Source: Pachysolen tannophilus NRRL Y-2460
Lineage: Eukaryota
Direction of reading: 5' to 3'
DNA: 64,000 nucleotides
Assembly (NCBI GenBank): GCA_001661245.1
Contig: KV454011.1
Coordinates: 1,900,041 to 1,964,040 of the forward strand
Every line of letters begins with the position of its first letter. Positions within the stretch are counted from its first letter, which is position 1. This document shows positions 1,012-64,000 of the stretch, in pieces. The notes under the pieces are model-generated. The model was not told where the DNA came from and searched no databases. It was given only the letters and a program-made list of their open reading frames with translations. Position numbers and translations under genes: made by a program.

Positions 1012-2838
1012 ATGATGAATCCTTACCTTTCACTGTTCTTGTCCTTTTTTTCATTGGAAGCATTGGATTCGAGATTAGCTCCTAATTCCAATTTATCCAA
1101 GAGAGGTGCTATAATCAAATCAGCTCAACCTTCAAAATGGTCGACTTTAGAATTTAAAATTTATATGGTATTATTTATTATTTTTGTTCCGATGATGTAT
1201 AAGACAGCAATGGATGCATCGAATGAAACAAATAAGAATTATTATATATATGAAGGAATATTAAGTGATGGTTGGATTTTTGGAAGAAAAGTGGATAATT
1301 CAGATTCTCAATATAAATTTTTTAGAGATAATTTCCCACTGTTGGTTGGTTTAATGACAATTCATTCTTTATTAAGGCAATTATCTTTAATATTTAAGGT
1401 TGGAAGAAATAAATTTGATCTTGTATTTGGTTGTATCTTTTTATTTGCAGCTCATGGGTTTAATTCTATTCGAATATTATTACATTTAACAATTAATTAC
1501 GTATTAGGAAAATATATCACTAATAGAAAAGCTGCTAAACTTCTGACTTGGGCTTATGGAATATTGGCTCTTTTCATTAATGATAAATATGGGAATCTAA
1601 GATATGTTTATTTTTCACCAATCTTGGCTCCACTTGATAATTTTAGAGGTATTGTATCTAGATGGGATGTTTTTTTCAATTTCACCTTATTAAAAATGTT
1701 AAGTTTTAATTTTGATTATTTGAATAGAATGAATGAATTAGAGGCTGAAGTAAAGCAAAAATCTCTGCCTTCATCATCATCATTATCATCATCAAGGATA
1801 AATACTGAAGTAGAAGCTAAAACAAAAAATATTGGTGAAAAAAATCCAAATTTAGATCAAATAGATGGTGATAGTGGTAGCGAAGTTCAAAATAAATCAG
1901 AATTACAATCGGAAAAAATTTTTTTAAATGATAGAGAAAGATTGGATGCTCCTTTACAAATACCTGAATATAATATTTCAAATTATTTAGCATATATAAC
2001 GTATGCACCATTATTTATTGCAGGTCCTATAATTACTTTTAATGATTTTATTTATCAATCATATAATACTTTACCAACAATTAATAAGAAAAAAATTTTT
2101 CTTTATGCATTGAGATTAGGTTTTTGTATCTTAGTGATGGAATTTCTTTTACATTATATTTATGTTGTTGCTGTTTCAAAAGCAAAAGCTTGGCATGATG
2201 ATACTCCATTCCAAATTTCAATGATTGGATTATTTAATTTAAATATTATTTGGTTAAAACTTTTAATACCTTGGAGATTATTTAGATTATGGGCATTAAT
2301 TGATGGAATTGATACTCCTGAAAATATGATTAGATGTATGGATAATAATTATTCAGCAATGGCTTTTTGGAGAGCTTGGCATAGATCTTTTAATAGGTGG
2401 GTCATCAAATATATTTATGTTCCATTAGGAGGCTATAAATATCGAATTTTATCCTCTTTGTGTGTTTTTTCATTTGTAGCTATATGGCATGATATTGAAT
2501 TAAAATTATTAATATGGGGGTGGATGATTGTAATTTTTCTTTTACCAGAAATTTTAGCTAATAAATATCTTAATACACCATATTATAATTCAAAATGGTG
2601 GTTTAGACATTTATGCGGTGTTGGTGCTGTCCTCAATATATGGATGATGATGATTGCTAATTTGTTTGGATTTTGTCTTGGTAAAGATGGAACAATTATG
2701 TTTTTAAAACAAATCTTTGATACATGGGAAGGTATAAGATTTTTCATTATATCAAGTAGCTTATTATTTGTTGCAGTTCAAGTAATGTTTGAATTAAGAG
2801 AAGCTGAAAAGAGGAAAGGAATCAACGTAAGATGTTAG
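1012..2838 (+). CDS. GUP1: MBOAT-family membrane-bound O-acyltransferase (GPI anchor remodelling)
   Basis: [56 protein letters not shown] with the catalytic His, and C-terminal [15 protein letters not shown] are typical of Gup1. Confidence 0.95.
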
Positions 2839-2942
2839 ATTAGAAACAACAATGATGCATTAATTATATATATTTCAAAAAAAAAAAAAAAAAAAAACAA
2901 TTCAATTTAAATGAACAACTAGCTTAGCTCTATTTTTAATTT

Positions 2943-3632: not shown

Positions 3633-3859
3633 TTCTTCACACCTTACTCTAAACTTCAATCCTCTTTGCTACTTCTTGGTTCAACTTGATTTGTATCATT
3701 AGAACTCTTCTGTTTACGTTTCCTTAATTGGGTTGTTTGCTAAAAAAACCCAAAAAATAATAATAATAATAAAAATAATAATAATTTTTAAAACATGATA
3801 TAAATTATAAAAGTTTTAAACATTGACAAAAATTATATCGATTACAGAGGAAATTCAAG

Positions 3860-5378: not shown

Positions 5379-7010
5379 ATGATGGATCAGAAGATGTTAG
5401 AAGTCATCAGGTTAAATAGTTCAAAACATCCAAAGCCTGAGAGTTTGGAATTTAGTTATGGGACTGCTGGTTTCCGTATGTTGGCTAAAAATTTGGATTC
5501 TGTGGTATTTAGAGTTGGGTTATTGGCATCGTTGAGATCTAAAGCTTTGAATGGGAAAACTATAGGTATTATGATAACTGCGTCGCATAATCCACCTGAG
5601 GACAATGGTGTGAAGTTGGTAGATCCTATGGGTGAAATGTTGGATCAAAATTGGGAAGTTCACGCAACTGCATTATCCAATTGTAATAATGTTGAAGAAT
5701 TATGTAATTGTCTTGAACAAATTATTAGTTTTTTCAAAATTGATTTAACAACTTGTTCCAAGATTGTTATTGCTAGAGATTCTAGGGAATCAGGTTTAAA
5801 ATTGTTGGAATCAACGATTGATGGTTTAAAATCATTTAATACTGAATATCAAGATTTTGGATTATTAACTACACCTCAATTACATTATATAGTGAGATGT
5901 TCAAATGATATCTCATTTGGTGAACTGTCAGAAAATGGTTACTATAAGAAACTTTCAAATAGTTTTAATAATATTTTCCACTATGAGAATGAGAATGAGA
6001 ATGGAAAGGAAAATTCTACCAAAATTTGTGTTACCATTGATGCTGCAAATGGAATTGGTGCTGATAAGATTGTTAAACTAAGATCTTACTTGTCAGAATA
6101 TGTTCAATTGGAATTGGTTAATGATAAATTTATGGAACCTCAATTATTAAATGTACTGTGTGGTGCTGATTTTGTCAAGACAAATCAAAAATTACCAAAT
6201 GGTATAAATTCTTTTAATTTAAATACTTTATTTTGTTCATTTGATGGTGATGCAGATCGAATTGTATTTTATTATGTTGATTCTGATAAAGTTTTCAAAT
6301 TATTAGATGGTGATAAGATTGCAACATTATTTGCATTTTTTTTCAAAAAAATGTTAGCTTTTTTAGAACTTGATGTATCTATAGGTATTATTCAAACAGC
6401 ATATGCCAATGGTAGTTCTACAACATATATTGAAGATAATTTACAAATACCTGTGATTTTCACTCCTACAGGAGTGAAACATTTACATCATAAGGCTTTG
6501 GATTATGATGTTGGTATTTATTTTGAAGCTAATGGACATGGTACTGTTTTATTTTCTCAAAATTTTATAAAATCTGTTACAAATTATCAATCTAATAATA
6601 TTGAAAAAAAAAGAAGTATTAATATCTTAAAAGAAATTGTTAATTTGATTAATCAAACAGTTGGGGATGCTATATCAGATTTATTAGCAGTATTGGTGAT
6701 TTTAAATTTTTTCAAATTTAAACCTTCAGATTGGGATAGTAATTATAAAGATTTACCTAATAAACTATTAAAAGTAATAGTTAAAGATCGTACCATATTT
6801 AAAACAACAAATGCTGAAAGAAGTTTAGTCGAACCAAAGTTTTTACAATCCAAAATCGATCAATTGGTTAAATCTTATAACAAAAGTAGATCTTTTGTTA
6901 GAGCCAGTGGTACTGAAAATGCTGTTAGAGTCTATGCAGAAGCTCAAGACCCCAAAAGTTGTGACGAACTAGCTGATAAAGTCTCCGCCTTGGTTCAAGA
7001 ATATAGCTAG
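5379..7010 (+). CDS. PCM1: Phosphoacetylglucosamine mutase
   Basis: YGTAGFR, ITASHNP phosphoserine loop, SFDGDADR metal loop, YFEANGHGT, RSFVRASGTENAVRVYAEA. First ATG at 5379. Confidence 0.97.
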   Translation: MMDQKMLEVIRLNSSKHPKPESLEFSYGTAGFRMLAKNLDSVVFRVGLLASLRSKALNGKTIGIMITASHNPPEDNGVKLVDPMGEMLDQNWEVHATALSNCNNVEELCNCLEQIISFFKIDLTTCSKIVIARDSRESGLKLLESTIDGLKSFNTEYQDFGLLTTPQLHYIVRCSNDISFGELSENGYYKKLSNSFNNIFHYENENENGKENSTKICVTIDAANGIGADKIVKLRSYLSEYVQLELVNDKFMEPQLLNVLCGADFVKTNQKLPNGINSFNLNTLFCSFDGDADRIVFYYVDSDKVFKLLDGDKIATLFAFFFKKMLAFLELDVSIGIIQTAYANGSSTTYIEDNLQIPVIFTPTGVKHLHHKALDYDVGIYFEANGHGTVLFSQNFIKSVTNYQSNNIEKKRSINILKEIVNLINQTVGDAISDLLAVLVILNFFKFKPSDWDSNYKDLPNKLLKVIVKDRTIFKTTNAERSLVEPKFLQSKIDQLVKSYNKSRSFVRASGTENAVRVYAEAQDPKSCDELADKVSALVQEYS

Positions 7011-7189
7011 CTAACCTATAATATAAATCTACATCTACATCTACATCTACATCTAGATATCCATCTAGATATATCCAATAACTTTAGTTAATTCCTTTTC
7101 TATTCTATTCTCTTGTATTCTCCTGGAGTTATCGCACACTAAAAACCTGAAAAATTTTTTTTTTGCTTTCTCTTCTTTCTTTTTTTCAC

Positions 7190-7199: not shown

Positions 7200-7470
7200 A
7201 TCAACTTTCAAATTGTGAAGGCTCATCAAGAAAAGTTTAGTAAAAGAAAAGTTCAACTTCCAACAAAGTTCAGGTATCTCTAATCATAGCAATTTATATT
7301 GGAAATATCTATGAAATTAAGCTTATTTTTTTGAAATTATAATTAAAAGAATTGTGATAATTTTTGTTAAAAGAAGAAAGCAGTGCGGGCCGAGCGCAAA
7401 ATAATAAATCTTATGTTTTAAAGATAACCTTTAAGTTATCACATTTGGACCTTAAATAATAATATTTGTG

Positions 7471-18768: not shown

Positions 18769-21700
18769 ATGAGTAATAGTAGTGTAAACGGGATCAATAA
18801 CAATAGTATAGTAAGTATTTAAAGACCAGAAGTTGATAATAACGTTGGCAAAGAGACCTAGACGGTAGCATCAATAGTGGCAATAGTGGAGGAAGTAGTA
18901 GTAGTAGTATTGGTAGTAGCAGCAGCAGTATACTAACAGATGGTTTTTTTTTTTGTTTTTTTTATTTAGTATAAGATGGACAGGATCCGTTTGGAGTCAA
19001 TAGAGAGAAGACGGCAGAAATGTAGTGATACTATTAAGCAGAGGAAAAGAAAATTAGCAGAATTGTACTATGTCAGCAAATCACCATTGATACCTGTATC
19101 TGCCCAGGAAATATTGAAAAGTGAAGACAGATTGCTTGCGTTCTTGGAGAAAAATGATTTGGAGAATGGGCATGGTTTTCAAGCATCGAAATTACCTTCC
19201 AGCAGTGGTAGTAATAATATTGCAAGTTTACAACAACAACAACAACTTGGATCAAGATCAAGGTCACAATCACAATCGCCAGTATTGAAAAACACAATCA
19301 TTAATAACAATAACAATAGGCAGGGTGTTTCCTCCTCAGCTTCATCACAATCCAAATCATCATCGAAGAAATCAACACCTTCAGCAACACCGACACTGAT
19401 GGGAACACCAACACATGCAAGAATTTCAGCCACTCAAACACCACCACTGCTTTTGAAGAATAATGACCAACTACTGATTAGCCAGCAGCATCAATTGACC
19501 ATGTCTGCTCCTCCAGCAATGCAGAACAAACAAACACAAAAACCTGTTAATACCATTATTAATACTCCAATAGTCAGTGATATACTGGCTTCTTCTCCGA
19601 TTACCGTACCAGCAAAGAGAAGCGCAAATACAATAACATCAGATGAAGTGATATCACCTAGCAAGTTTTTAAAAGTTGATAACTCTGAAGGAAGCCCAAG
19701 TAGAATAGTGGTGCCTTCAGTAACTCCAGTTCTTCTGGAGCAGCAATTGCAACACCAACAACAAGCTCAAACTCAACAGCTACAACAACTTCAAAAAGAA
19801 AGCGGGAGACTGGACTTGATTCAATCTACACCGTTACCGACAATAGCCTCAGAAATTTCAAATAGTAACAATAGCGGTGAACGTTTACAAGAACAAAACA
19901 CCCTGGCCATTAGTGCAGTAAAAGAAGCTGCAAATAATATTTCCCATAATCAGAACATTAACAATAATACTAATATAAATAACAACGACGGTGACAGTAA
20001 AGTTACTGTTGCTGTTAATGGCAGCCAGAGTATGACTGCAAGCGACGAGCAAGAGAGAGAAAAATTGGACGAAGAACTCAAGCTGCAACAAGAACAAAAG
20101 TTAAGAGAAAAAGAATTGTATGCGGTCTCCCCCATTCCTCATGATTATGTAGAGACCCCAACTTTATCAAGTTTAATATTGGCATTTTCACAGTCAAAAC
20201 AAATCGATGATTTAGGAAATGATGTTATTCAGAAAAGCAGAGAGCTCAATTTATTTGACAATATCGATATCAGTAAATTGTCGGTTTTACTAATGCCTGA
20301 AAATTACCCTTCAAAAATTGCAGAATCCTCACCATTAGCCGAATTATATTATTTAACTCAAACATGTCCTCTTTCCAAATTACTACCAGGAACTAATAAA
20401 ACTTTAACAACAGATACCTATGAGTCTGCATTATTAGAAGGTAAAGTTGCAGTTGTTTATTCGAGAATTGAAGAATTGAAAAGACAAAAGAAGTGGAGTC
20501 TTAGACAGCCTGGGCGTTTTGTTGATCCTTTCACCGCTGAAAATGGGCCTAGTAGCTCTCACTGGAATAGTTTGCTCACAGAAATGAAATGGATGTCAGT
20601 TGATTTTGCAGAGGCTAGAAAATTCAAGTTGGTGCAATGTTTCTACATTGCTCAATCGGTTATGGATTATTGGAATTATGGTAAAATAGTATGTGCTCAT
20701 GGAAAACCTGTTGAATATTATTTGCGAACCACCAGAGAAAGTAGTGGTGGAAAGGTCAGACAGCAAAGTACAGATGGAAATCCAGCTTCTAAGTTTGGAG
20801 AGAAGATAACAACTACAGATTCAATAAATGAAGAGGAGAGTAATGAAAGGGACGTGCATATGGAAGATTCTATAGAGTCTACCGATAATAAAGATGTCAC
20901 AAAGGAGGAGCAGGATGAAGAATCAGCAAGTGAAAACCCAGTGGATTCTGTGTCACAACTGGAAGAAGAAAGCGAAGATCATCACACTCAGAGCTTTCCA
21001 AAAGAGGATTCTGAAGACTGGAATATTGATGTTTCATTATTGTTGGAGCGTCCGAATCCAGCAGACGAAATTGTTCCACCAAAACTTCCAGAAATTAGTG
21101 AACAGGACTTCCTGAAACTTGAAGATAAATCTTTTCAACCTTTCAAAATATACGTTGACTCTGAAGACTTGACCAACACAGATCTGGCTATCATTGAAAA
21201 TTTGCCAACTTATATCGCATTTGACGACTTCAAAGAGGAAAAACTGATTGATCCATATTTGAAGAATCCAATAACGGCTGTGTCTAGATTACTAACACCA
21301 ATAGATGAAGATGATGAAGAATGGTATAAAGTGGTAATGAGAAATGATGATAGTGTTACTTCACCCCTTGCCTCGACTTATCAAAAAGGTTTCTTTGGCC
21401 TTAATGGACAGAAAAGGCTAAACTTTATCAAGCCTCCGTTACCTCCATCTTTGAAGTATTTAGATCTTAGAACTCCAACTATTTGGTTACCAGAAGATGA
21501 TCGTTATCTTATTCATTATATTGCTGAATATCAGTTTAATTGGAATATAGTTTCTGCTCATTTGTCAGCGCATCCAACAAGGGGTTATTCATCAAATATA
21601 GAAAGAAGAACGCCATGGCAATGTTTTGAAAGGTATATTCAGTTAAATGACAAATTTCAGTTCTCAGATATGAGGGGAGGCTATTCGAGCTTGGCACAAC

Positions 21701-42400: not shown

Positions 42401-44110
42401 AACATACGGATGAGCTGAAAGTAATTCCGGAGCTGCAAAATATAAAGAACCACAAAAAGTTTTCAATAAATGTTTGCGATCATAAAGGTTAGATAATCCG
42501 AAATCGATAATCTTTATTTCACCGGTTTTAGATATCATAATGTTTTCAATTTTCAAATCTCTATGAACAATGCTATTCGAATGACAATAGAATAAAGCAG
42601 AAGATATACCACGGGCAAATTTTCTTGCGTGCCTTTCTTTTAAAGATCCATGAGAAACAATATAATCTAACATCTGACCACCTGAGACGTATTCAAAAAG
42701 CATATAATAATGGTTTGACATCGGTACCATATCAAACAATCTACAAATAAATGGATGATACATTATCTTATCTAGCGCAGCTTCTCTGATAGTTCTAGTA
42801 TCTCTTGCTACTTCTTTCTCATATTCTTTGCGCCTTTTCAGTAATTCTCCTGGGTCACTAGTTGGAGGGTCATCAGCATGCATTCTCAACCATATTTTAG
42901 CTGCGCGAGGAACAACTTTAACAGCACAGATTTCGTTTGTCTTTCTATGTCTTGCCAACTTCACTTTACCCATTGAACCAGCTCCAATTGTCTTGTAAAA
43001 ATCCCAATCTCCTATTGATTTTCTATGAAATTGGGTTGATGATGGCTGTTGTTGTAACGGTGGTGGCTGCTGTGACTGAGATTGTTGTTGTGATTGAGGA
43101 GGTATCACTAAAGGTGTTTGTTGCAGTTCCAGTTTTTGCTGCTGCTGTGGTGGTAATGGGTTGGAAACGGAATGCAGATGAATGGATGAGCTCACAGGCT
43201 TGGCAATTGGTTGAGAAACCGTTCTGGGCTGATGTTGATTACTGTTGATTGTATTTGTATCCACAGTAAGTGGAGGCAATAAACTATTTCCTTCTTGTGG
43301 TTGTTGTGGTTGTTGTGGTTGTTGTTGTTGATGTAAAGGAAAATTCATTCTTTGGGTTGAACTTGGAGACCTTTGATTCTGATATTGGGTTTGTACTGCT
43401 GCAGCCATTTGCGCTGATACTGATCTTGGTGTTTGAATTTGCGGCTGTTGCTGATGTTGCGACATTAATCTTGATTGTTGTGGTGAAACAACCATTCCAG
43501 GAACCGGTACCTGTGCTCCATTAGATGCAACTCTTCTTGAAGTGGACGGTGTTCTTTGTTGTAACGGCGACAGCTGCAGCAGTTGAAATTGCAGCAACTG
43601 TTGCAGTTCCTGTTGAAGTTGGAAATTTGTATTTATGTGATAATCATTCAAATTATTGTTGCTCGGATTCAAAATGTTACTACTTGCATTTCTCAACATT
43701 CTTGGTGTTGCTGGTGCTGCATTTGGCTGAGCGCCACTTCTATACATACCGCTGTTACCGATTACTGTTGCTGTATTGGTATTGACATTGACATTGGTAT
43801 TGGCACCAGCACCAGCACCAGAGGCGGCGGTGCCGGCCGAAATAGCGTTACCGCCGCCCGTGCTACCGCCACTGCTCGCACTACTGATATGATTACTACC
43901 TGATGAAGATTGCTGATGATGCCTCACTTTTGGTAAAATATTTGTTATATGTTGCGATGGATCTAACATATTGTACTGCAACAGCTGCAGTTGTTGTTGT
44001 TGTTGTTGTTGTTGTTGCAGCAATGGTTGACTACTTCTAACATTGTTATTGTTATTGTTATTGTTCGATGGCGACCTGACATCATCATCATTATAACTTC
44101 TGTTTAACAT
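39497..44110 (-). CDS. KIN1: PAR-1/MARK-family Ser/Thr kinase Kin1/Kin2
   Basis: FHRKSIGDWDF..TIGAGSMGKVKLA, HRDLKIENI, DFGLSN, FCGSLYFAAPELL; KA1 domain PLKFEIHIVKVPLVGLFGVQFKK..GNTW.YK.LA..IL..LNL. First ATG at 44110. Confidence 0.96.
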   Translation of the reverse strand: MLNRSYNDDDVRSPSNNNNNNNNVRSSQPLLQQQQQQQQQLQLLQYNMLDPSQHITNILPKVRHHQQSSSGSNHISSASSGGSTGGGNAISAGTAASGAGAGANTNVNVNTNTATVIGNSGMYRSGAQPNAAPATPRMLRNASSNILNPSNNNLNDYHINTNFQLQQELQQLLQFQLLQLSPLQQRTPSTSRRVASNGAQVPVPGMVVSPQQSRLMSQHQQQPQIQTPRSVSAQMAAAVQTQYQNQRSPSSTQRMNFPLHQQQQPQQPQQPQEGNSLLPPLTVDTNTINSNQHQPRTVSQPIAKPVSSSIHLHSVSNPLPPQQQQKLELQQTPLVIPPQSQQQSQSQQPPPLQQQPSSTQFHRKSIGDWDFYKTIGAGSMGKVKLARHRKTNEICAVKVVPRAAKIWLRMHADDPPTSDPGELLKRRKEYEKEVARDTRTIREAALDKIMYHPFICRLFDMVPMSNHYYMLFEYVSGGQMLDYIVSHGSLKERHARKFARGISSALFYCHSNSIVHRDLKIENIMISKTGEIKIIDFGLSNLYDRKHLLKTFCGSLYFAAPELLSAHPYVGPEVDIWSFGVVLYVLVCGKVPFDDQSVSVLHDKIKQGHVEYPKFLSPECLSLLKRMLVVDPIKRATLPEIMHHPWIIQGYGSPPCTYVPHRLPLVLPLDLEIVKEILRLELGTEDQIVNDLTEVLTSEEYLLCVDNWYKKQNNETFTDQYDTYMPDPTIGYHPLISIYFLVDEMKKRKKAKMEASKTDIQLAQTQRDVFADAGTSQQDMQKQIEKAVEETDESKLKAQESEREQQIALEYVSSKITLKPVLAYPEAAYTSTTHGQMNYKPHTPQQEQREFTPGSIPLQQSSRSQSPKSVKTSNIDQALISANTNPIGSLSPVSTSIPSPQQKELHQQYANEHNASTANKGGFNSLFRRLSSKKLKTPIIVSSPTHNYSNQHYQQPFTTTTENDDVDRSSKIPSVNAYESPSPPLHDELKQYYPQTAIEPLVRRVGSMKITSKEKEQLRNQKFPPLPQNTLVVQPNQDQQPHQRAVSVSVGSNEDKLLRAKQLLQLQEISGNTTENANLLKPKGTSRKMHPSARAKSVGHVRKNSLLDKNGQVPPVPLLPQHNQDEGFFDDVNLNDDDFNTSIIKRSKQNSISSNDTGKEMTEAELIANFEHAPSGTMPSIEYPRTLFLKGFFSVQTTSTKPLPVIRYNIINVLKQLNVQFKEVKGGFICYHVPSINTSVVPKVITTQEEQEDNGGSVSDEGKEENRTKEENRTNVTEGDKTPPVTRTRSHLSSDSSARGSSDEKEPNVGEDVISGDSSSRSSNGLNRVPSSITSPASMSKTHKRKFSLGNGLLNYRKKPDQLRINPNIATTPTASNSAGFNDNLMTLTPAPVNIQRHQHSRSFNSTESQDSLDSLHYVRGGSDMLDSSRVEQQHISSGNNGKTSKGSNTQHVTSLNFATTAYTDQSAVSANLNSAGNNNVNRIDSNKNERRTPLKFEIHIVKVPLVGLFGVQFKKLTGNTWMYKALAGQILQALNL

Positions 44111-48204: not shown

Positions 48205-49983
48205 ATGGAATCTTTAGCTCGTCAATCATTGAATGCTTGTCCATTTGTTCGTTCAACTTCAGCAAATGCAATGAGACTGTTATCCAAGAATTCGAACTTG
48301 GTTATGCAGGCAAGACATTGTCCAGTTATGGGTCCAGCTTTGGAGCAACAGAGAGAATACTCAACTCCTTCTAAACCAGTACAGGCTGCTGCCACTTCTG
48401 CCGTGTCACCAACGCCGGAAGTTGTTGTTGCTCCCGCACCAGCTCCAGCTACCGCACCAGCTTCTGGTTCAACTACTTCAAGTCAAGCTTCCAATCCAGT
48501 TTCAATTCATGGTCGTGGTAACCGTCAGCCGATTAGTTTTGCTTCCAATGAAACTTCTTTTGATTTTGATGGTTTATTTGAAACTGATATTTTGAAAAAA
48601 CGTCAAGAAAGTTCATATCGTTATTTTAATAATATTAATCGTTTAGCAAAAGAATTTCCTAGAGCTCATCGTGATACTGAAGATGATAAAGTGACTGTTT
48701 GGTGTTCAAATGATTATTTGGGAATGGGTAGAAATGAAAAAATTTTAGAAACCATGAAGGCAACTTTAGAAAAATATGGTGCAGGTGCTGGTGGTACTAG
48801 AAATATTGCTGGTCATAATATGCATGCCATTAATTTAGAAAGTGAATTGGCGGCGTTGCATAAACAAGAGGCTGCATTGGTTTTTTCATCTTGTTTTATT
48901 GCCAATGATGCTGTTATCTCATTATTGGGTCAAAAAATTAAAGATTTAGTTATCTTTAGTGATGCTTTAAATCATGCTTCAATGATTGTTGGTATTAAAA
49001 ATTCAAGAGCTAAAAAGGAAATCTTTAGTCATAATAATTTAGAAGATTTAGAACTGAAGTTAGCTTCTTACCCACGTTCTACTCCAAAATTAATTGCTTT
49101 TGAATCTGTTTATTCAATGTGTGGTTCCGTGGCTCCAATTGAAAAAATTTGTGATTTGGCCCATAAATATGGTGCTTTAACTTTCTTGGATGAAGTCCAT
49201 GCAGTTGGTATGTATGGTCCTCATGGTGCTGGTGTCGCTGAGCATTTAGATTTCGAAGCTCATTTAAAAGCAGGTATCGCATCACCAAAAGGTATTACTA
49301 CAATTTTAGATAAAATTGATATGGTTACAGGTACCTTGGGTAAATCTTTTGGTACCGTTGGTGGTTACGTTGCAGGATCTGCAAATTTAATCGATTGGTT
49401 TAGATCTTTTGCTCCAGGTTTTATTTTCACCACATCTCTTCCTCCAGCTGTTATGGCTGGTACTGCAACTTCGATTAGAATTGTTAGAGCTAATATCGAA
49501 GATAGAGTTAAACAGCAGAAAAACACTCGTTATGTTAAGGATCAATTGAATCAATTGGGTATTCCAATCATTCCAAATCCTTCACATATTGTTCCAGTTC
49601 TTGTTGGTGATGCCGCTGCAGCAAAAAAGGCTTCTGATTTACTTATGGACAAACATAGAATTTATGTCCAAGCAATCAATTTCCCAACTGTTGCTAGAGG
49701 TGAAGAAAGATTAAGAATCACTCCAACTCCAGGTCACGGTAAGGAAATCAGTGATGTTCTTATTGGTGCCATTGATGATGTTTTCACAGAATTGAACTTG
49801 AGAAGAATCCCATCTTGGGAAAATGTCGGCGGCCATTGCGGTGTTGGCGTTGCAGGTTCAAAACCAGCTCAACATTTATGGACTAATAAACAATTGGAAT
49901 TGACAAACAAAGATTTGAATCCAAATTGTATGGAACCTGTTATCAAACAATTGAAAGTTTCTTCAGGTATTCCTGTTGCTTAA
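48205..49983 (+). CDS. HEM1: 5-aminolevulinate synthase, mitochondrial
   Basis: [62 protein letters not shown] (PLP lysine), [17 protein letters not shown]. First ATG at 48205. Confidence 0.98.
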
Positions 49984-50847: not shown

Positions 50848-53415
50848 TTATTGACCATTACCTTCTTCACCAAATTTAGTTCTCTTTTTGTCCCCTCCAA
50901 TAGCTACCGTATCTTTGCCATCAAGCTGATGAACCTGTCTGGCCCCTTGTTCATTGATGATTGATTCATCCGATTTTTTCGAAATCGTGCCGTTTGACTT
51001 GGCCTCATCACCATTTTCTTTGAATTCTTTTTCTTGTCTTCTAGCGAAATCAGATAATTTCTGTTCTAAGAGCAATTCTCTTTGTCTTGCTGAACTTTCC
51101 AGCTGTTCTAATTCCATGATTCTTGTCTTATACAAATCGTTAACCAATTCTAACTCAGAAATCCTTGTTCTAAGAATGTTGACATCATCAGTATTGATCT
51201 TGGTCAAAGGAGATGATGATCTATGAGGTTGTTGTTGTTGTTGCAGTTGCAGTTGCAGTTGCTGAGATTGGCTTAAGTGCAGTAACAATGGCTGGGAATT
51301 CTGTTGTTGATAATGTATTTGTGGAAGCTGATGGATTGGATTTAGTAAAGATGGTGGTTGTTGCTGTTGTAAAGAAGGTGATGTGGAAGACGTGCCACTA
51401 CTTTGAGTTAGACTTGGTAATGTCGGATTACCAACAGAGTTATGATTCATCAAAGGTTTCAAAGATGTCAATGGCGGAGGAGTACTTGAATTAGTATATC
51501 TCTGGCTGCCAAGGTCACCCAGTGAATTGGTTAATGAACTAATACCAGGAATAGAATTTGACAATGAGCTATGTTGTTGCAGATGATTTTGTTGGGATAA
51601 AGAAAATTGGGGACCAAAACTTGGCGAAGTGGCAGCAACTGCTGATGATGATGATTCTTGTGCAGCAGCAGATGAAGATACAGAAGCAGGTGCACTTACC
51701 CCTTTTTGTTGTTGATTTGCAGCTGCCGCAGAGACAAGGGCAGGGAGCTTTGTTGATGAATTTGAGCTTGATCCCATAGCATTCATTAAAGGAGAGTTGA
51801 TACCATTTAAAGCAGAAGAAGGTGAATACGGAACTTTCATCAAACCAGTTCCACTTCTATTCCTTGACATTGTATAGCTATTATTGTTATTTATATGACC
51901 ATCTTCTTCCAATTTAATACCTGGAATTTTCCTATCATCATGTTCATGTGCCAAATTTTCTAAAGTTCCTGCAGCTGCGTATTCTCTATCTTTATTAGTA
52001 TTACCAGCAGAACTTGTTGAACCTCTAAGACTTGCACGTTCTGAAGATTGTGAAGGATTAAACTTTGGTGTTGTACTTGCCAATAATAAAGGAGATGTGA
52101 TTGTAGTTAAATTCGGAGCAAACTGTGCTGGAGTAGACGATGGATAATGTAATGGTTGAGCAAAATGATGGTGACTACTAGCATGCCCTTGTAAATGATG
52201 CAGGTGCAGCACTTGAGAAGGATGTGGATGTGGTTTCAAATACCCACTACCACCACCAGCTCCTGTTGCTGACATCGCATAAGGGGAGTTTACTGTTGAT
52301 GCCGAGGTCTGAGGATGTAAATTAGAAGACCAACTAGAAGTGTATGGATATGGTGAATTGTTTCCCGTTGCTTGTTGTCCCCTTGGTAATAATGGAATCA
52401 AACTTGGTTGTTGAGAGGAAGAATTTCCTGTGTTACCAGTATTAGCATTAGTAGCTGTTGCTCCTGCCACTCCAATTGTTTGTGTTCCCGGTTGGCTTGC
52501 TGATTCCCCACCAGGCAAACTTGTTGAAGAACCTATAGAAGTGACTCCCATCTTATTATTATCCTGGAGACTAGGGGAATTCTTATCATTTTTTCCTGTA
52601 GAAGGTTTATACTGTTTTGGGGAGAACTTCCCTGAAGAATTTATCCTTTCTCTTGCTCTCAACTCCGGAGTATTTGGTCCACTACTCAAAGTCCCTTGAT
52701 TATTAGAAACATTAACTGCTGAATTATTTGCTGAACCCATGGCTGAACTTATGGTAGAACCTGTAGTTGAACCATTATTATTATTATTACTATTATTACT
52801 ATTATTATTATTATTTTTACCATTTTGATTATGTTTAACTCTATTTCTAGATTTGATAACATCAGTCTTTAACGAGATTGGTCTTGGTCTTCCATGAAGC
52901 TTTAAAAATAATCCACATGCATTACACAACACTTGTCCACTCTCATCTCTACGCCATAAAGGTGTTGTTTGAGTCTTACAATTATGACATATTGGTGAAG
53001 AAATATTTGTCTTTGTTGTTGTTGATCCATTCGACGTATTAATAGTCGAAGTTGTCTTTGCATTTGGATGAACTGGATTACGATCTTGCGATGAACTAGA
53101 TAAACTAGATGACCGCGAATCCCTTTGATGATGTATTTGATCCTCTTGTTCTTTCTTTTGCTCCAACCCTGATCCTGCCCCAGACCCTGTCAAGGAAAAC
53201 GAGGACTGAAGAGGAAGCAGCAGCTGGGGCAGCAGCTGAGGCTGCTGCTGCAGACTCCCCAGTAAACTCCCCAGCGAACTCACTTGTAAAGGCTGCTGCT
53301 GTTGCTGTTGCAGTGACGGCGGCAGAGGCGGTGAGGACACCAGCGCCGGGGCCCGGTGCTGGTGCTGCAGCTGAATCGCCGCGATTGACGGTAAACTTCT
53401 ATTGGGAGCAGACAT
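50848..53415 (-). CDS. GZF3: GATA zinc-finger repressor with C-terminal leucine zipper (Gzf3/Dal80)
   Basis: [50 protein letters not shown] and zipper [23 protein letters not shown]. First ATG at 53415. Confidence 0.9.
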
Positions 53416-53953: not shown

Positions 53954-54331
53954 NNNNNNNNNNNNNNNNNNNNNNNNNNNNNNNNNNNNNNNNNNNNNNN
54001 NNNNNNNNNNNNNNNNNNNNNNNNNNNNNNNNNNNNNNNNNNNNNNNNNNNNNNNNNNNNNNNNNNNNNNNNNNNNNNNNNNNNNNNNNNNNNNNNNNNN
54101 NNNNNNNNNNNNNNNNNNNNNNNNNNNNNNNNNNNNNNNNNNNNNNNNNNNNNNNNNNNNNNNNNNNNNNNNNNNNNNNNNNNNNNNNNNNNNNNNNNNN
54201 NNNNNNNNNNNNNNNNNNNNNNNNNNNNNNNNNNNNNNNNNNNNNNNNNNNNNNNNNNNNNNNNNNNNNNNNNNNNNNNNNNNNNNNNNNNNNNNNNNNN
54301 NNNNNNNNNNNNNNNNNNNNNNNNNNNNNNN
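53954..54331. other. Assembly gap (N run) flanked by poly-T/poly-A
   Basis: Run of N characters. Confidence 0.99.
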
Positions 54332-54933: not shown

Positions 54934-56583
54934 ATGAGTCCACAGGTGGTGCTGAGACATTCGTCGCATCATTTTGTGAATGTGAAATATGGTTATTTTG
55001 TTTTTATATTTGTTGATTTGGCTTATCCTATTTACCTTTATCTTACTAGAAAATTTTATACTTTAAGATGGTCAAAATCTGGTAGATCAACAAGTTATTT
55101 AAAACTTGTTTCTATTCCACTTACATTGAAGATTTTTTTATGGAGTTTTTTAATTTTATTAATTGGGTTTTGGAATTTACATTTAGGTAATGATTTTGTG
55201 ATACATTTGAAAAGATTTGGTAGAATTTCTTATGTTTTAATTCCTTTAGATATATTACTTTCATTTAAACCATGTCCAATTCCATTTAACAATTATTTAG
55301 ATATGTTAGTTCTTCATAAATGGATATCAAGGTTGATTATAATATGTGCAATTTTCCATTCAATTGGATTTTTCATACGTTGGAGTTTATTAAATTCTTT
55401 ATCAAGAAGTACACTGAAACCATTAAATCTGTTAGGTATTGTTGTATTTGCATTATTTAGTATCTTAATAATAATTTCAATAAGACCTATAAGAAGATTT
55501 TTTTATAAATTTTTTTATATTTTCCATATGATTACAGTATGGTCAACAGTTATATTAATTGGATTTCATGCAAGACCAGGTGTAACAATTTACAGTTGCA
55601 TATGTGCTTTATTATTAATATATCAAATTTATTCACGTATAAGATATACTAAAAATATAGAAGTTTTGAATTATAAAAAACCTATAGGAGCTTCTTTACT
55701 GTTGATCACTTTATCTAAAACTTTACCACTGGTTTTTTCTCCTGCTTCACATATTAGACTTTCATTTCCTTTAACTTCATTTCAATCTTGGATTTTCCCA
55801 ACTCATCCATATACAATTGCAACACATCCAAGTGATAAAGAAATTAAATTAATTGTTAAAGAAACTCATTTTTTCAAACTTGTTAAATTTGAACAATATT
55901 CAGTTACAGGTCCATATGAATCTTTGCCTTTAAATTTTTTCCAAACAGCTGAAAATATTTGTATTATTTGTGGAGGTTCAGGTATTTCATATGGATTACC
56001 AATATATTCTCATTTTAAAAAACTGATAAATAATCATTCTGTATTTGTTAAATTGATATGGATAACTAAAAATAAAAATGATTTATATCTTTTAAATGAT
56101 TTACAAATTCAAGGAATAGAAATTTTTATCACACTGGATAAATCATCATTTATTCAAAATGTGTTAGAACCAGAAAATAATAGCAATAATAATGGAGATA
56201 GTAGTTTTATGGATGATGAAATGAATGATTTTTTAATCGATGATGATGAACTTGCTCATGACAATAATGATACACATTCTTTAGCATCAATAGATTCATT
56301 AGATCATGAATTAAATCCTTTTAATAATTCAAATACTACTGAAATAAATGGTAAAGAAAGATTTACAGGAATCAAATCACAAGCTGATTTCCGTTCAAAA
56401 AACATTGCACATTATGGTAATAGACCTATATTAAATGAATGTTTTAGAAAAAATTTAATTAAAACTGCAGATACAGCTAATAAATGGGTTATTGCATGTG
56501 GTCCCCAATCTTTAATCAATGATTGTGAGAAATTTGCAAAACAAAAGAAAACGAGATTTGCATCAGAGGTTTACGCGATGTAA
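54934..56583 (+). CDS. AIM14: Ferric-reductase-family metalloreductase / NADPH oxidase Aim14 (Yno1)
   Basis: RHS..HF.N.KYGY, KR.GRISY.L.P..I.L, LHKWISR, heme-ligand histidines, HPYTIA (FAD), CGGSGIS..LP, ACGP.SL. Confidence 0.85.
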   Translation: MSPQVVLRHSSHHFVNVKYGYFVFIFVDLAYPIYLYLTRKFYTLRWSKSGRSTSYLKLVSIPLTLKIFLWSFLILLIGFWNLHLGNDFVIHLKRFGRISYVLIPLDILLSFKPCPIPFNNYLDMLVLHKWISRLIIICAIFHSIGFFIRWSLLNSLSRSTLKPLNLLGIVVFALFSILIIISIRPIRRFFYKFFYIFHMITVWSTVILIGFHARPGVTIYSCICALLLIYQIYSRIRYTKNIEVLNYKKPIGASLLLITLSKTLPLVFSPASHIRLSFPLTSFQSWIFPTHPYTIATHPSDKEIKLIVKETHFFKLVKFEQYSVTGPYESLPLNFFQTAENICIICGGSGISYGLPIYSHFKKLINNHSVFVKLIWITKNKNDLYLLNDLQIQGIEIFITLDKSSFIQNVLEPENNSNNNGDSSFMDDEMNDFLIDDDELAHDNNDTHSLASIDSLDHELNPFNNSNTTEINGKERFTGIKSQADFRSKNIAHYGNRPILNECFRKNLIKTADTANKWVIACGPQSLINDCEKFAKQKKTRFASEVYAM

Positions 56584-58535: not shown

Positions 58536-61500
58536 TCAGCTTAAATATTTTGGCTTTCTGTAACCACGTAGTCCCTTACGTGGATTAACTTGGGTATCTG
58601 GCTGGACAAATACAAGTAATGTCTCCGGCAAATATTCAACTAAAGATATATCAAATGTTTTATCCAATAATATAGGAACGACAATTATCGAAGATAATAA
58701 AATCAGCATTATCAAGAAAATTAAAGAGTAAAAATATACTGTCATGGTTCTTTTCCTTCTTTGTTTCAAAGAAAATATTTGAGGACGAATTAATCTCCCT
58801 GGTTTCAACCATAATAACATCAATGAATGAAACCTATCAATATATGGAATAAGCAAAATTGGCAATTGTATGAACAAGATGAAATGACAAAGGAAAAAAT
58901 CGCCAGCAAACATACTCATTTCAATTACTTTGCAAATATATTCTCTTACTGGTTGAGTCAAAATATTCCATCCAAGACCAGCAGATGCCCATTTTCCGGA
59001 CCACCAAGCATAATTTGTACTATCGTATTTCATCTCACGAGTGAGGAAAATTTGTGTAATCAATTTGAAAAATAAACTTTGAATCAATATTGTGTCACAT
59101 AAACCTAAAACAGATGTTGCAAAATCCCAATTCTGACAAAGCCATAGAAATTCAAAAAATGCAACATGATTCAAAATTGAAAAAGAGTGAGCAAAAAGTG
59201 CTAATAATGACGGGAAACCACTATATAAAAATGTTAAGATCGGTCCAAAAAGAGCTGAAATTATAAATAATGCCAAAAGCAAGGCCATGTTAAGTGCAAT
59301 TGGTCCAAAAGAACAAAATAATATTCTTAAAACAGTATTTGCAGGCATGCTTCCACGAACATCATTTTGAGAATTCGCAAAAAAATATGCTAGGGAAACA
59401 AAAAAAGTCATTATCAAATGTGGTATAGTTTGAGAAAGAAGTAAATTAAAGGCGGATGGTTTTCTAAAATCAGGTGTTGGTTTCTCCAATGCTCTTTTTT
59501 TAACTTTACGTTTTGAACCAGTAAGTTGAGTTCTAGTACTTCTGACATATCCATTCCAGTTATCTTTATTATATCTTGAACTCCCTGCTGATAGCCATCC
59601 AAGAAAGTTTTTATAATCAAGGAAAAATTCACACCACAAAAATTGATTTGGATTGAATAAAAATGGTGAAATACACAATGCACCAATTGTTGCCCATAAA
59701 TATAGTAACGACGGTTTCCACATACTGATGGAGCTGTAAATTAACATACAGATGGCTGTTGCCCCAAAATATAAACTTTCCGTTGCAAATCTTGTGTACA
59801 ATACAGAAAATGGAACTCTGACGGTTGCAAAACCTCGACCTGTTGCAATATAACGCGCGCCTCCAATAGCAAGATCATTAATTAACGACTGAGCATAAAT
59901 TTTACACACAAACACTTCGAATAACGGAGAACACGAAGCAAAATGCTTAGCAAAACGAGTCAAAGCTCTCCATATACCTCTTTCAGTCAATTCTTGAACA
60001 CACAAAGGAACAAATGAAATTGCAAAAACCATTGAAATCGACAAGATACAACGTTGGAGCCATTCAACAACCGGGATTAAGTTCAAACAGCCAGGCGGTC
60101 TTCTAGCATCTGTGATTGGCCTATTTTTATCATATTCACAAATGACGGAATCATGCGTCAATGCAGCCATGTTAATACAGACCAAAAGGAACAGTTTGAT
60201 CGATAAAAGGATGAAAACATTGTTCAAATGGAAACCTGGATGAGCATAATAAAAAGATAAAAATCTATCAACTGGTAATTGCGTTCCTAAATAGAAATAT
60301 TCACGTGAAAGCATTTGTTCACCCATTCCTGCACCAATCTTGGTAGTGAAATTCAAAATAGATCCAAACCCAAGATCACGTCCTTTACCACATTGCATAT
60401 ATTCACAATGCTTAATACGCCCACCACGAATCATCGCATTCATACCCGCATATATATCTTCATTTAAATGTAAACCTTTTTGAGCTTTTGAAACACCACC
60501 TCGAGTCGTCATGAAGACGCTATTCAAGAAATCTGGATGTCCATAATGAAGCTTTCCACCAATATGGGCTAAAGTTCTGGCAAATAAAGTACCAAATGTT
60601 TGTTCTTTACCTGCTGCAACGTCCCCTAAAACTCCAATATTTTCAGAGAAAATATATTCTCTAGTACCAATAATGGCAACAGGATTATTATAGTTTCCAA
60701 CAAAGTTATTATCAGTGTAAGGATCTGTTGGGACTGAGGATTCTTCAAATTCAGCCAATACATTTCTAATTTTCAAACACTCTTCAAGGTAATTGTCTTG
60801 ATTAGCGTCAATTAATTGAATGTATTCACCACGACAAAATATCACAGAGTGGTTTTGGTTATCACTTTTACCATCACCAAGAATAGGATTACCAGAAAGT
60901 TTGATACGGTATTTTGGTTTTCTTTGACCATTTTCAGTAATTTCACAACTACCGTCAATAAGACAAGAATAGAAATTAACCTCACCAGTTTCCTGAATAA
61001 TTTCTTCTTCAAGATAAGAAATTTGTAATTCAGGGTAAGCACGTAATATGAAATCTTTATCTTCCTGTTCTGCAGTGAAAAATTCGTTCAATCTTTGCAT
61101 CGAAACAATTATTCTAAACTTTCTTAAAGCCATAATGGATGCAGATTCTAATTTTTTATGTTCACTATTATCAAAATCTTTCAAGTTTGGATTCTCAACG
61201 TCAAATAAAAGTTTGATAGCACGAGAGTAGTTCATAAACCCTGAAATTGTTCTGTAAAGAGTTTGAGAACGTAAAGAGGCCCAAATACGAGTTCTCAAGA
61301 TATATTCAGGGGAAGAAGACTTGAAACCAACACAATAATATGCCAAATCGTCAAATTTTAATACCGAATCTTCTTCTGAAATTGTAGCAGAGTCACCAAT
61401 TTCATGAGATAACAGTTTGGTATCTTGAACAAAATTCTCCCATTCTGAGGGATGAAGCTGCTTGAGATATTCTAATAATGTGACATGAGAATATTTATCT

Positions 61501-64000
61501 TCTTCTCTAATAATTTCTTTCAAAGACAACGTAATTTTCTCAGAATAATGTGGAATTAATACAGAGAAAGTAGGCATTGACTTTGTTGAAGTAGCTTCGG
61601 GCATTGGTGTAGATAGAGATTGAGCAAAAAATGTAATTCTCCTTTGTGCCTCGGTTTGTGATTCAAATATTGAGGATTTCATAAATTGATCTTCTTGTGA
61701 AACAAAAAAATTAGGTTCTTTTAAAACACCTTCTCCAGTATCGGTTTCAATTGTTTGTTGATATATTAAGCGTTGAACAACATCAACAGATAATAAATGT
61801 TCACGATACATAGAGATAATAATCGAATTCCAAACTTGTGAAACCAAATATTTGGCCTTAATATTACGATCCGAGTTGGAAGCAATGATCTTGGAAAAAA
61901 TTCTCTTTGGTAAACGTGAAAAGATATTACGCCATGGGGTCCAAATTGAAACTCCAATGTAAAAAGAACGACAGACAGAAAATAAAGTATTGGAAATGAT
62001 ATACCACAAATAAGTATCAAGGAAAAATAAAATGATATCTGTGAAATACATTAATGCCAAAAGAATCCATGGTTGGTATGAACAAAACAATGAACCAAAA
62101 TAGACCTCTCCAATACATCTTCTAATTTGCATTGTACTCAATTCTCTTATTGGATCACGGAGCGAAAGCGTTAAGAAAAAATATGACTCGGTAAATTTTG
62201 CAGAAAATACCAAGACCCAAAGACTCCATGATGATAAAGAATTCCTGCCATGTAATTTATATACCGAACCTGTGAAATATCTACTTGCCAAAAATGATCT
62301 TTCATCTCTATTGAGATAACTAATACCGAATAAACCACCTAATGGAGTTATCGAGAAATAGATAACCGTGAAAAGTGAGAAAACAAATTGGGCAATGGCA
62401 ATGGTTAAACACTCAAAACTTGAATCATCCAAATCACGAAAAAGGAAAATATAAATTGAAGGAGACGTATTCAAGATTAAAATGAAAAAAAGGAAAAATA
62501 ATTTTTTAGTCAAAGGTTCAGCTCCAGGCCATTTTCTTGGAACAAATACGTATTCAGCTAAAGTGGCAACGATATTGATAAAAGTGGAAAGTGATCCTGC
62601 TAAAGAAATTGCAGAAAGTGTTGCCTGCATAGTTGGCGGATTATTAAGAGCCTGTTTGTAATTTTTTGTATAAAGGGTTGGAGAATTAAAAACTGTATAA
62701 TACCAGAAAACTGATATATGAATGATCCATATACGATTAAAATTTGTAATTAAATGGAGCCAGGTCCTTGTTTCATGAAAAGTCTTATAAAAAGCTTTTT
62801 CCCATAAAATGTCCTTCATATAGATATAACGCTGAGTTGGTGGAATGGACATAAATTTTGTCTTACGATCTTTCAAGACAATTTTTTCTAAACCTTTTCT
62901 ATACCAAAATAATTGATTCATATCATCGTATCCAATTGTTGAAGAATGATCTTTATCGCAACGAACGTAAGCGCCATCTACCAAATCATATGTTTGGTCA
63001 CGATAAAACTCATATAATGGAGTAATAACATGATCCAAAAACCCATCTGGCGATGCCTGTTCAATTTTTGCACTAAAATCCAAAGAATAGAAATAATCGT
63101 TGCAACATTTGAAAATAAAACAAATACATTCTGGCATAAATCTTATATTATTTGCTTCACCCCAAATCAAAAGGTACAAAGCGATTTGTACAACACAATC
63201 TAATGCTGATAAGGAATTCATATTTTGAGACCACCTTTTTTCTGATTCTTGTAATGACAATACGTCTTCTTTTGTGATATTTTGTGATCTCATATAATCT
63301 TTTGTTGGAGTACCATCCAGCTTAGCGTTTTTATATCCAATTGTGTCATCAATATCTAATTGTGAAGCAAAATACCATTTCCTAAAATTTGAATTTAATC
63401 CGCCAATATAATCTGCATGTAAGGATCTTAGCGCTAGTATTGGTCCCATTCTTGAAGCTCTTGAATCTAATAGTTTTAAAAGATAATCAAACATATTTCT
63501 AGTGTTATCCAATTGGAAACCAAATACGTCTGTCAATTGTATGAATATTGCTTCAATTTCCATTCTAGTTATTGGGATGCATTCAGGGGGATTCCATGAT
63601 GGATAGGGATCATAATAATTATCAAATGCATCATAAATTCCTCTTTCCTTAAAAGCTTCACCTTCGACTTTTTGATCGGCACCAAATTTTTTACTTGCAT
63701 AAAGATTTCTAACTTTACCCAAATCATTCCAATGACTTGTATTAATAAAAGGTGTATTAAAAGCGCTAAATGGCAAGGCGCTTTTTTCTGTAAAAGCTGA
63801 ATTAAACCCAGTTCCATGGAGATCATTTATATTAAATGCTTTAAAAATGGGTAAAAGTTAGTAAAAGAGGAAAATCCAACAAATCAGCCTATCCGCCTAC
63901 TGAGGTAATTCTTACTAGAAGTTGTTGATTTAGGGTTATTTTGATATTCCGGTGAATCAGTATACCTCGTTGAAGAATCATCTGAAAATTCTTCCTTCTC
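58536..64000 (-). CDS. 1,3-beta-glucan synthase, FKS family (FKS3/GSL1-like paralogue), 5'-partial; join(complement 63916..>64000, 58536..63838)
   Basis: LYLLIWGEANNIRFMPEC, IGYDDMNQLFW, FLTLSLRDP, RRITFFAQSL, LGDGKSDNQNH, GLHLNEDIYAG, KIGAGMGEQMLSRE. The track start at 63776 is TTG; the frame continues upstream through an intron. Confidence 0.93.
63839..63915 (-). other. Spliceosomal intron in the FKS gene
   Basis: Minus strand GTAAGA...TACTAAC (63863-63857)...TAAAG; joins ...NPKSTTS-T-FNINDLHG... in frame. Confidence 0.85.

What the first reader, a model, noticed from the sequence alone, without database searches (positions are those of the whole stretch)
1012..63838. Non-standard genetic code: CTG appears to encode Ala (CUG-Ala clade signature), not Leu
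Seen: CTG is scarce in the conserved cores I inspected (e.g. the KIN1 kinase domain) but dense in disordered Q/S/A-rich tracts (EAF1 AAAAVL-X-QQ-X-X-QQ, GZF3 Q-X-Q-X-Q-X-Q and PQ-X-X-PQ-X-X). Where CTG falls in conserved motifs, homologues as I recall them carry small residues: PCM1 5925 FGE-X-SENGYY vs human PGM3 YGKATIEGYY; HEM1 49054 DLE-X-KLASYP vs common fungal DLEAKLA; DUF2841 30577-30575 WWP-X-DV; HRT3 36569 SS-X-WTNP (Ser/Ala-like). Established: CUG is Ala in Pachysolen/Nakazawaea/Peterozyma and Ser in two other yeast clades. Inference: a Pachysolen-like yeast. Counter-evidence: FKS DTK-X-L (61415-61413) sits at a usually aliphatic position, and Ser cannot be excluded.
Basis: partly seen in the sequence, partly recalled or inferred. 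Interest (0 to 1): 0.8.

Follow-up and report, generated by a model that had tools for sequence, protein, structure and literature searches.

The report
Pachysolen yeast reads CTG as alanine

Summary
The window is a 31.8% G+C yeast locus with 22 long ORFs holding 140 CTG codons. One ORF (AIM14-like, 54934-56583) matches the NCBI protein PACTADRAFT_64355 of Pachysolen tannophilus NRRL Y-2460. All 472 aligned non-CTG residues are identical, and all 7 CTG sites are 'A' in the record. The next best homologue is 54% identical.

For this species, CUG=Ala is published: a tRNA-Ala(CAG) with G3:U70 and A73, and 97.2% of 907 MS-supported CUG sites read as Ala (PMC4937558). It is NCBI table 26.

Tests on the window alone:
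- **Distribution:** CTG is depleted in Pfam domains (23/6241 codons against 117/9234 outside, odds 0.29) and clusters in Q-rich tracts.
- **Leu:** it fits CTG sites badly, by Pfam scores (S-L +8.7, A-L +6.6 bits) and by orthologue columns (A-L +15.2 bits).
- **Ala against Ser:** not resolved. Orthologue columns give A-S +4.3 bits (bootstrap 71%). Pfam gives S-A +2.1 bits.

Verdict: interpretation supported, phenomenon already known, low interest.

The parts
54934..56583 (+). AIM14-like ferric-reductase ORF with 7 CTG codons (residues 7, 161, 166, 256, 266, 364, 401). This is the ORF that identifies the organism.
   Evidence: All 472 aligned non-CTG residues are identical to PACTADRAFT_64355 of Pachysolen tannophilus NRRL Y-2460, and all 7 CTG sites are 'A' in the record. 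The record lacks 51 residues that it models as an intron.
39497..44110 (-). KIN1/KIN2-like kinase ORF with 22 CTG codons, none in the Pfam kinase stretch 428-647.
   Evidence: Column 424 is Ala in 75 of 120 homologues. Column 678 is A 54 / V 29 / S 24. Column 703 is M 49 / L 22.
18976..23700 (+). EAF1/VID21-like ORF with 20 CTG codons, mostly in Q/N/S-rich tracts.
   Evidence: Column 1024 is A 39 / S 31 / G 15. Column 737 is Q 70. Column 1423 is L 45.
50848..53415 (-). GATA-factor (GZF3-like) ORF with 20 CTG codons in Q/P/S-rich tracts.
1012..2838 (+). GUP1-like MBOAT ORF with 4 CTG codons.
   Evidence: Column 110 is L 36 / I 17 / A 10. Column 178 is L 44 / A 22 / V 19.
5925..5927 (+). CTG at PCM1/AGM1 residue 183 (FGE-x-SENGYY).
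   Evidence: Aligns to Pro in C. albicans 2dka and A. fumigatus 4bju. Coordinates confirmed.
49054..49056 (+). CTG at HEM1 residue 284 (DLE-x-KLASYP).
   Evidence: Aligns to Gln (S. cerevisiae 5txr/8eim), Arg (7x98) and Glu (2bwn). Pfam Aminotran_1_2 scores 218.5 / 221.1 / 221.6 for L/S/A.
30575..30577 (-). CTG at residue 212 of the YDR124W-like (DUF2841) ORF (WWP-x-DV).
   Evidence: Coordinates confirmed. The Pfam family score, with 2 CTGs in the matched stretch, is 133.2 / 136.2 / 136.3 for L/S/A.
36569..36571 (+). CTG at HRT3-like residue 260 (SS-x-WTNP).
   Evidence: Coordinates confirmed. Pfam FBO_C scores 64.1 / 64.6 / 64.4 for L/S/A.
61413..61415 (-).
   Evidence: Aligns to Ile in S. 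cerevisiae GSC2. The other FKS CTGs, 1124 and 1620, align to Met and Leu.

Best explanation
The window is nuclear DNA of Pachysolen tannophilus, the same as or nearly identical to strain NRRL Y-2460. In this yeast CUG is decoded as alanine by a tRNA-Ala that carries the anticodon CAG (NCBI table 26).

Shown here:
- the organism's identity;
- that CTG sites do not behave like Leu sites;
- that CTG is depleted in conserved domains and concentrated in Q-rich low-complexity tracts.

Taken from the literature and not shown here: the tRNA-Ala(CAG) with G3:U70 and A73, and mass-spectrometric proof of Ala at CUG sites.

Inferred: CTG sits mostly in poorly conserved columns because today's CTG codons arose after the ancestral Leu meaning was lost, at sites that tolerate Ala. 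Many arose by single-base change from neighbouring CAG Gln codons in Q tracts.
For: Identity:
- P0121, PACTADRAFT_64355 [Pachysolen tannophilus NRRL Y-2460], matches ORF 54934-56583 at all 472 aligned non-CTG residues and has 'A' at 7 of 7 CTG sites.
- The next hit is 54% identical.
- The nearest other named taxa for KIN1 and EAF1 are Kuraishia, Ogataea and Komagataella at 45-53%.

Literature:
- PMC4937558 (abstract, and Results part 1 of 2) reports that the tRNA(CAG) is a tRNA-Ala with G3:U70 and A73. It counts 16,824 CUG sites. Of 907 sites fully supported by fragment ions, 97.2% read as Ala.
- PMC5951914 (passages) defines an Ala clade of Pachysolen, Nakazawaea and Peterozyma.

Not Leu:
- Pfam whole-protein scores were summed over 18 families. 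Ser exceeds Leu by 8.7 bits and Ala exceeds Leu by 6.6 bits.
- In 16 filtered orthologue columns Ala ranks first (-0.1 bits) and Leu scores -15.3.
- True Leu sites of matched entropy give A-L = -23.6, against +15.2 for CTG.

Distribution: CTG odds inside against outside Pfam stretches are 0.29, against 1.18 for the five Leu codons.
Against: Within the window, Ala is not separated from Ser.
- Orthologue columns give A-S = +4.3 bits, with Ala ahead of Ser in 71% of bootstraps.
- The Pfam sum favours Ser by 2.1 bits. That shrinks to 0.3 if TPR_11 (29.1 / 30.8 / 32.6 for L/S/A), which I had left out, is added.
- Plurality-class likelihoods are equal: -32.9 for Ala and -32.3 for Ser.
- CTG columns do not look like ordinary Ala sites. 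Entropy-matched true Ala sites give A-S +24 (5-95%: 13.6 to 33.2) and an own score of +18.8, against +4.3 and -0.1 for CTG.
- Five of 16 filtered columns are dominated by L/I/V/M/F. In addition FKS 717, 1124 and 1620 align to I, M and L.

Other limits:
- The 'A' in the NCBI record reflects the translation table used. It is not independent evidence.
- Identity rests on one named protein. No Pachysolen record was listed for KIN1 or EAF1. The tool may withhold the window's own proteins; I could not tell.
- No tRNA gene lies in the window and no whole genome is held.
Confidence: 0.97

Rival explanations
1. CTG is read as serine, as in the CUG-Ser1 (Candida/Debaryomyces) or CUG-Ser2 (Ascoidea/Saccharomycopsis) clades.
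For: The Pfam sum is 2.1 bits higher for Ser than for Ala. Plurality-class likelihood is marginally better for Ser (-32.3 against -32.9). CTG is enriched in S/Q-rich disordered tracts.
Against: The organism is P. tannophilus, for which MS shows Ala (PMC4937558). The nearest named relatives are Kuraishia, Ogataea and Komagataella, not Candida-clade species. Orthologue columns favour Ala by 4.3 bits. Only 1 of 16 filtered columns has Ser as its commonest residue, and 5 are hydrophobic. Database homologues that look like CUG-Ser species translated with the standard code show many Leu in Ser-dominated KIN1 columns (24, 15 and 9 in three of them). In that tally the window's CTG count was not among the six highest listed (lowest listed 5), and its exact value was not printed.
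Confidence: 0.01
2. CTG is ordinary leucine (standard code), and its odd distribution is only codon bias in an AT-rich genome.
For: Some CTG sites lie in hydrophobic columns: GUP1 110 and 178 (Leu commonest), AIM14 161 and 166 (Phe/Leu), KIN1 703 (Met/Leu), FKS 717/1124/1620 (I/M/L). Three Pfam families score best with Leu: DHHC, FAD_binding_8 and Glucan_synthase. A fourth, Asd-4, is only 0.4 bits better than with Ser.
Against: In orthologue columns Leu scores 15.2 bits below Ala, where true Leu sites of matched entropy score 23.6 bits above Ala. The Pfam sum is 6.6-8.7 bits lower for Leu. CTG is depleted in domains (odds 0.29) while the other five Leu codons are enriched (odds 1.18). The species is known to lack CUG-Leu decoding (PMC4937558).
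Confidence: 0.01
3. CTG is decoded ambiguously, as Ala plus a second amino acid at an appreciable level, as reported for Ascoidea asiatica (Ser/Leu).
For: CTG columns fit no single amino acid well: the best log-odds is -0.1 bits. A third of the columns are hydrophobic.
Against: PMC4937558 (Results) reports 97.2% Ala. It found ambiguous translation at 8 and non-Ala translation at 18 of the fully supported sites, a level similar to the AUG control. A poor fit is also expected if CTG sites are simply young and unconstrained.
Confidence: 0.01

Closest known systems
Pachysolen tannophilus nuclear code, NCBI translation table 26 (CUG = Ala)
   Same: It is the same organism and the same codon reassignment. 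The window's AIM14-like protein matches the NRRL Y-2460 record, which carries Ala at each CTG site. The ORF listing itself names table 26 'Pachysolen tannophilus nuclei: CTG=A'.
   Different: Nothing found. The only discrepancy is a 51-residue stretch that the record splices out and that is open in frame in the window.
CUG-Ala clade relatives Nakazawaea and Peterozyma (Krassowski et al. 2018, PMC5951914)
   Same: Same reassignment, by the paper's passages. The unnamed best homologues at 54-57% identity (P0001, P0122, P0306) might belong here. That is a guess.
   Different: The window is not from these genera. No named sequence of either appeared in my searches, so nothing could be compared.
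CUG-Ser1 clade, NCBI table 12 (Candida albicans and relatives)
   Same: CUG has been taken away from Leu, and the codon avoids conserved Leu positions.
   Different: That clade uses a tRNA-Ser(CAG) rather than a tRNA-Ala(CAG) (PMC4937558). The window's proteins are closer to Kuraishia, Ogataea and Komagataella than to Candida species.

Membership tests
CUG-Ala code (NCBI table 26; Pachysolen/Nakazawaea/Peterozyma clade) | The organism belongs to the clade. | tested here: met
   All 472 aligned non-CTG residues are identical to a P. tannophilus NRRL Y-2460 protein. The next homologue is 54% identical.
CUG-Ala code (NCBI table 26; Pachysolen/Nakazawaea/Peterozyma clade) | A tRNA with anticodon CAG carrying alanine identity elements (G3:U70, A73, no long variable arm). 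| not testable with these tools
   There is no tRNA gene in the window and no whole genome is held. Published for this species in PMC4937558.
CUG-Ala code (NCBI table 26; Pachysolen/Nakazawaea/Peterozyma clade) | Peptides show Ala at CUG sites. | not testable with these tools
   Published: 97.2% of 907 fully supported CUG sites read as Ala (PMC4937558). I did not check whether any of the window's 22 proteins are among them.
CUG-Ala code (NCBI table 26; Pachysolen/Nakazawaea/Peterozyma clade) | CTG sites do not align with conserved Leu. | tested here: met
   A-L is +15.2 bits over 16 columns, against -23.6 for true Leu sites. The Pfam sum with Leu is 6.6-8.7 bits lower.
CUG-Ala code (NCBI table 26; Pachysolen/Nakazawaea/Peterozyma clade) | CTG sites fit Ala better than any other residue, Ser included. 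| tested here: inconclusive
   Ala ranks first of 20, but only 4.3 bits above Ser and in 1003 of 2000 bootstraps. Pfam favours Ser by 2.1 bits. Class likelihoods are equal.
CUG-Ser codes (NCBI table 12, Ser1 and Ser2 clades) | The organism lies in a CUG-Ser clade. | tested here: not met
   The organism is P. tannophilus. The best named relatives are Kuraishia, Ogataea and Komagataella.
CUG-Ser codes (NCBI table 12, Ser1 and Ser2 clades) | CTG sites concentrate in Ser-dominated columns. | tested here: not met
   Ser is the commonest residue in 1 of 16 filtered columns. In the tally of Ser-dominated columns the window's CTG count was not among the six highest listed (lowest listed 5) for KIN1, and its exact value was not printed.
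Standard code (CUG = Leu) | CTG sites behave like the other Leu codons in conservation and column content. | tested here: not met
   Domain odds are 0.29 against 1.18 for the other five Leu codons. Leu ranks 5th of 20 at -15.3 bits.

The most novel reading that the evidence does not exclude
About a third of the alignable CTG sites sit in columns dominated by Leu, Ile, Met or Phe: 5 of 16 filtered columns, plus FKS 717, 1124 and 1620. Entropy-matched ordinary Ala sites show this in 11 of 72 cases. If the excess held genome-wide, some CUG codons could be survivors of ancestral CUG-Leu sites that passed through the reassignment. That would argue against complete codon loss before capture, as in the tRNA-loss model. 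With these numbers the excess is not significant, and it may only reflect the tolerance of Ala at hydrophobic sites.
Probability: 0.08. Interest if true: 0.45.

Novelty: already known. Interest (0 to 1): 0.1.

Why it matters
There is no new biology here. CUG=Ala in Pachysolen tannophilus was published in 2016 and has its own NCBI table.

Practically, the window's 22 long ORFs must be translated with table 26. Otherwise up to 140 residues are wrong.

It is also a useful calibration of the scan. A reader with no tools picked out a rare code from one 64-kb window. Tool-based comparative analysis of the same window can exclude Leu but cannot by itself tell Ala from Ser. The tRNA, proteomics or the organism's identity is needed for that.

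Tried and rejected
- **Whole genome:** none is held for this window, so the tRNA(CAG) could not be sought. ARAGORN finds no tRNA in the window.
- **Exact look-up:** That question could not be asked that way.
- **Sequencing runs:** five runs in two studies hold 97% of the sampled words of 48205-52000, under coded organism names only. No RNA holder is listed.
- **Earlier notes of this scan:** nothing by place or by words.
- **Closest relatives:** I looked for Leu at Ala-dominated columns in the nearest unnamed relatives, as a sign that they too use CTG=Ala. P0001 has 3 of 33 in KIN1, no more than several standard-code species, so this is uninformative.
- **Plurality-class likelihood:** it does not separate Ala from Ser.
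- **Pfam families dropped from the 18-family sum:**
  - families overlapping the same region as a counted family: PK_Tyr_Ser-Thr, ABC1, Hydrolase_4, Abhydrolase_6, Esterase, Cys_Met_Meta_PP and all seven TPR families;
  - families left out because I judged, that they hold no CTG in the matched stretch. Of these, KA1 changes by 0.5 bits (62.6 / 62.1 / 62.1); DUF7077 by 0.3, TRAPPC10 by 0.2, and AMG1_III, PGM_PMM_I and NAD_kinase by 0.1.
- **Calibration not run:** I did not calibrate the Pfam score differences by re-reading true Ala or Ser codons.
Full report
**What is in the window**

The window has 31.8% G+C (20223 of 63622 called bases) and holds 22 ORFs of at least 250 codons. Pfam recognises ordinary yeast genes among them.
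- a GUP1-like MBOAT;
- PCM1/AGM1;
- an NAD kinase;
- a DHHC palmitoyltransferase;
- TRS130;
- HEM4, HEM13 and HEM1;
- EAF1;
- a GGA-like adaptor;
- a PABA synthase;
- a KIN1/2-like kinase;
- a GATA factor;
- an AIM14-like ferric reductase;
- an FKS glucan synthase.

These ORFs hold 140 CTG among 15497 codons. For comparison there are 705 TTA, 462 TTG, 198 CTT, 78 CTA and 40 CTC. No tRNA gene lies in the window and no whole genome is held for it.

**Check of the observation**

The distribution claim holds:
- CTG is 23 of 6241 codons (0.37%) inside Pfam best stretches and 117 of 9234 (1.27%) outside (odds 0.29, p 1e-9).
- GCN Ala codons are spread evenly (odds 0.93).
- The five ordinary Leu codons are enriched inside (odds 1.18).
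- Gln is about 3-fold enriched within two residues of a CTG, and CTGs cluster with each other.
- The KIN1 kinase stretch has none.

One caveat applies. Fourteen CTGs lie in the first 84 codons of ORF 7471-9162, which may not be coding.

The claim that homologues carry small residues at CTG sites was not reproduced:
- HEM1 284, also cited, aligns to Gln, Arg and Glu.
- FKS 717 aligns to Ile.

**Which amino acid fits, from the window alone**

*Pfam scores.* I scored all 22 proteins against Pfam three times, with CTG read as Leu, Ser or Ala (tables 1, 12, 26).
- Over the 18 families I counted, Ser beats Leu by 8.7 bits and Ala beats Leu by 6.6 bits. I chose one family per region: those that hold or adjoin a CTG or whose score changed. 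The dropped families are listed under Tried and rejected.
- Ser beats Ala by 2.1 bits. That falls to 0.3 if TPR_11, which I had dropped, is added.

*Orthologue alignments.* I aligned four proteins with database homologues, writing X at every CTG:

| Protein | Homologues used |
|---|---|
| KIN1 | 120 of 120 listed |
| AIM14 | 64 of 65 (the organism's own record left out) |
| EAF1 | 120 of 120 listed |
| GUP1 | 112 of 150 representatives, those of 450-800 residues |

- The four proteins hold 53 CTG codons. Sixteen lie in columns that pass a filter set in the script that first scored the columns, after the raw columns had been printed: occupancy at least 0.7 and flanking identity at least 0.2. 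The other 37 were dropped.
- Summed log-odds rank Ala first (-0.1 bits). Ser follows at -4.5, Gln at -5.8, Lys at -7.5 and Leu at -15.3.
- As a control, samples of 16 sites from each of 37 other codons gave the right amino acid in at least 199 of 200 draws.
- CTG columns are much more variable than average (median entropy 2.55 against 1.63 bits).
- Entropy-matched controls show what real sites look like. True Ala gives A-S = +24 (5-95%: 13.6 to 33.2). True Ser gives -17.7. True Leu gives A-L = -23.6.
- CTG gives A-S = +4.3 and A-L = +15.2. In bootstraps Ala is above Ser in 71% and above Leu in 93%.
- By commonest residue the 16 columns split into 3 Ala, 1 Ser, 5 L/I/V/M/F and 7 other. This is equally likely under Ala and Ser, and 6 bits worse under Leu.

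*Conclusion from the window alone.* Leu is excluded as the general meaning. Ala against Ser is open. CTG sites look like sites under little constraint.

**Who the organism is**

The AIM14 search returned NCBI protein PACTADRAFT_64355 of Pachysolen tannophilus NRRL Y-2460.
- In the pairwise alignment all 472 aligned non-CTG residues are identical, and all seven CTG sites are Ala in the record.
- The only difference is a 51-residue stretch absent from the record. It corresponds to an in-frame GT...AG segment, 56204-56356, that the public model splices out.
- The next best homologue is 54% identical, so this is the same species and probably the same strain.
- For KIN1 and EAF1 the best named hits are Kuraishia, Ogataea and Komagataella at 45-53%. 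This fits a lineage beside those genera rather than the Candida clade.
- No Pachysolen record was listed in those two searches. I cannot tell whether the tool withholds the window's own proteins.

**What is known**

- Muhlhausen et al. [quoted passage not shown] They also show that 97.2% of 907 fully supported CUG sites are Ala by LC-MS/MS, out of 16,824 CUG sites in 5288 predicted proteins.
- Krassowski et al. 2018 (PMC5951914; listing and passages) place Pachysolen, Nakazawaea and Peterozyma in one Ala clade.
- Riley et al. 2016 (PNAS) was seen only as a reference entry.

**Verdict**

The phenomenon is already known and codified as table 26.

The mechanism (a tRNA-Ala with anticodon CAG) is taken from the literature and could not be re-tested here. 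What I showed directly is the organism's identity, the non-Leu behaviour of CTG sites and their skewed distribution.

The only loose end of possible interest is the share of CTG sites in hydrophobic columns. On these numbers it is not significantly above that of ordinary Ala sites (5 of 16 against 11 of 72).

Noticed in passing
window 7471-7722: The first 84 codons of the NAD-kinase ORF hold 14 CTG, including a (CTG)5 run, and have no acidic residue. Read with table 26 they give an Ala/Leu/Ser/Pro-rich stretch that could be a mitochondrial presequence of a POS5-like kinase. It could also be untranslated leader, with the real start at the ATG at 7723. A 64-codon ORF lies on the minus strand (7439-7633) over the same repeat.
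   Followed up: partly
window 56204-56356: The public P. tannophilus AIM14 model lacks 51 residues. These correspond to this 153-base GT...AG segment, which is open in frame in the window and encodes an N/D-rich insert. The 5' end (GTTTTA) is a poor match to what I recall of the yeast splice consensus, so the intron may be a modelling artefact.
   Followed up: partly
window 53954-54331: A run of 378 N lies between the GATA-factor gene and the AIM14-like gene. It is either an assembly gap or a withheld stretch.
   Followed up: no
KIN1 homologues P0117, P0096, P0030 (alignment): These unnamed database proteins carry 24, 15 and 9 Leu in columns where at least 60% of sequences have Ser. This is the signature of CUG-Ser yeasts whose genes were translated with the standard code. 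It is a caveat for any column tally made on this protein collection.
   Followed up: partly
window 58536-63563 (minus strand): The FKS-like ORF aligns to S. cerevisiae GSC2 only from GSC2 residue 182, so it lacks the N-terminal region of FKS1/GSC2. It may be an FKS3-type paralogue or may have a different start.
   Followed up: no
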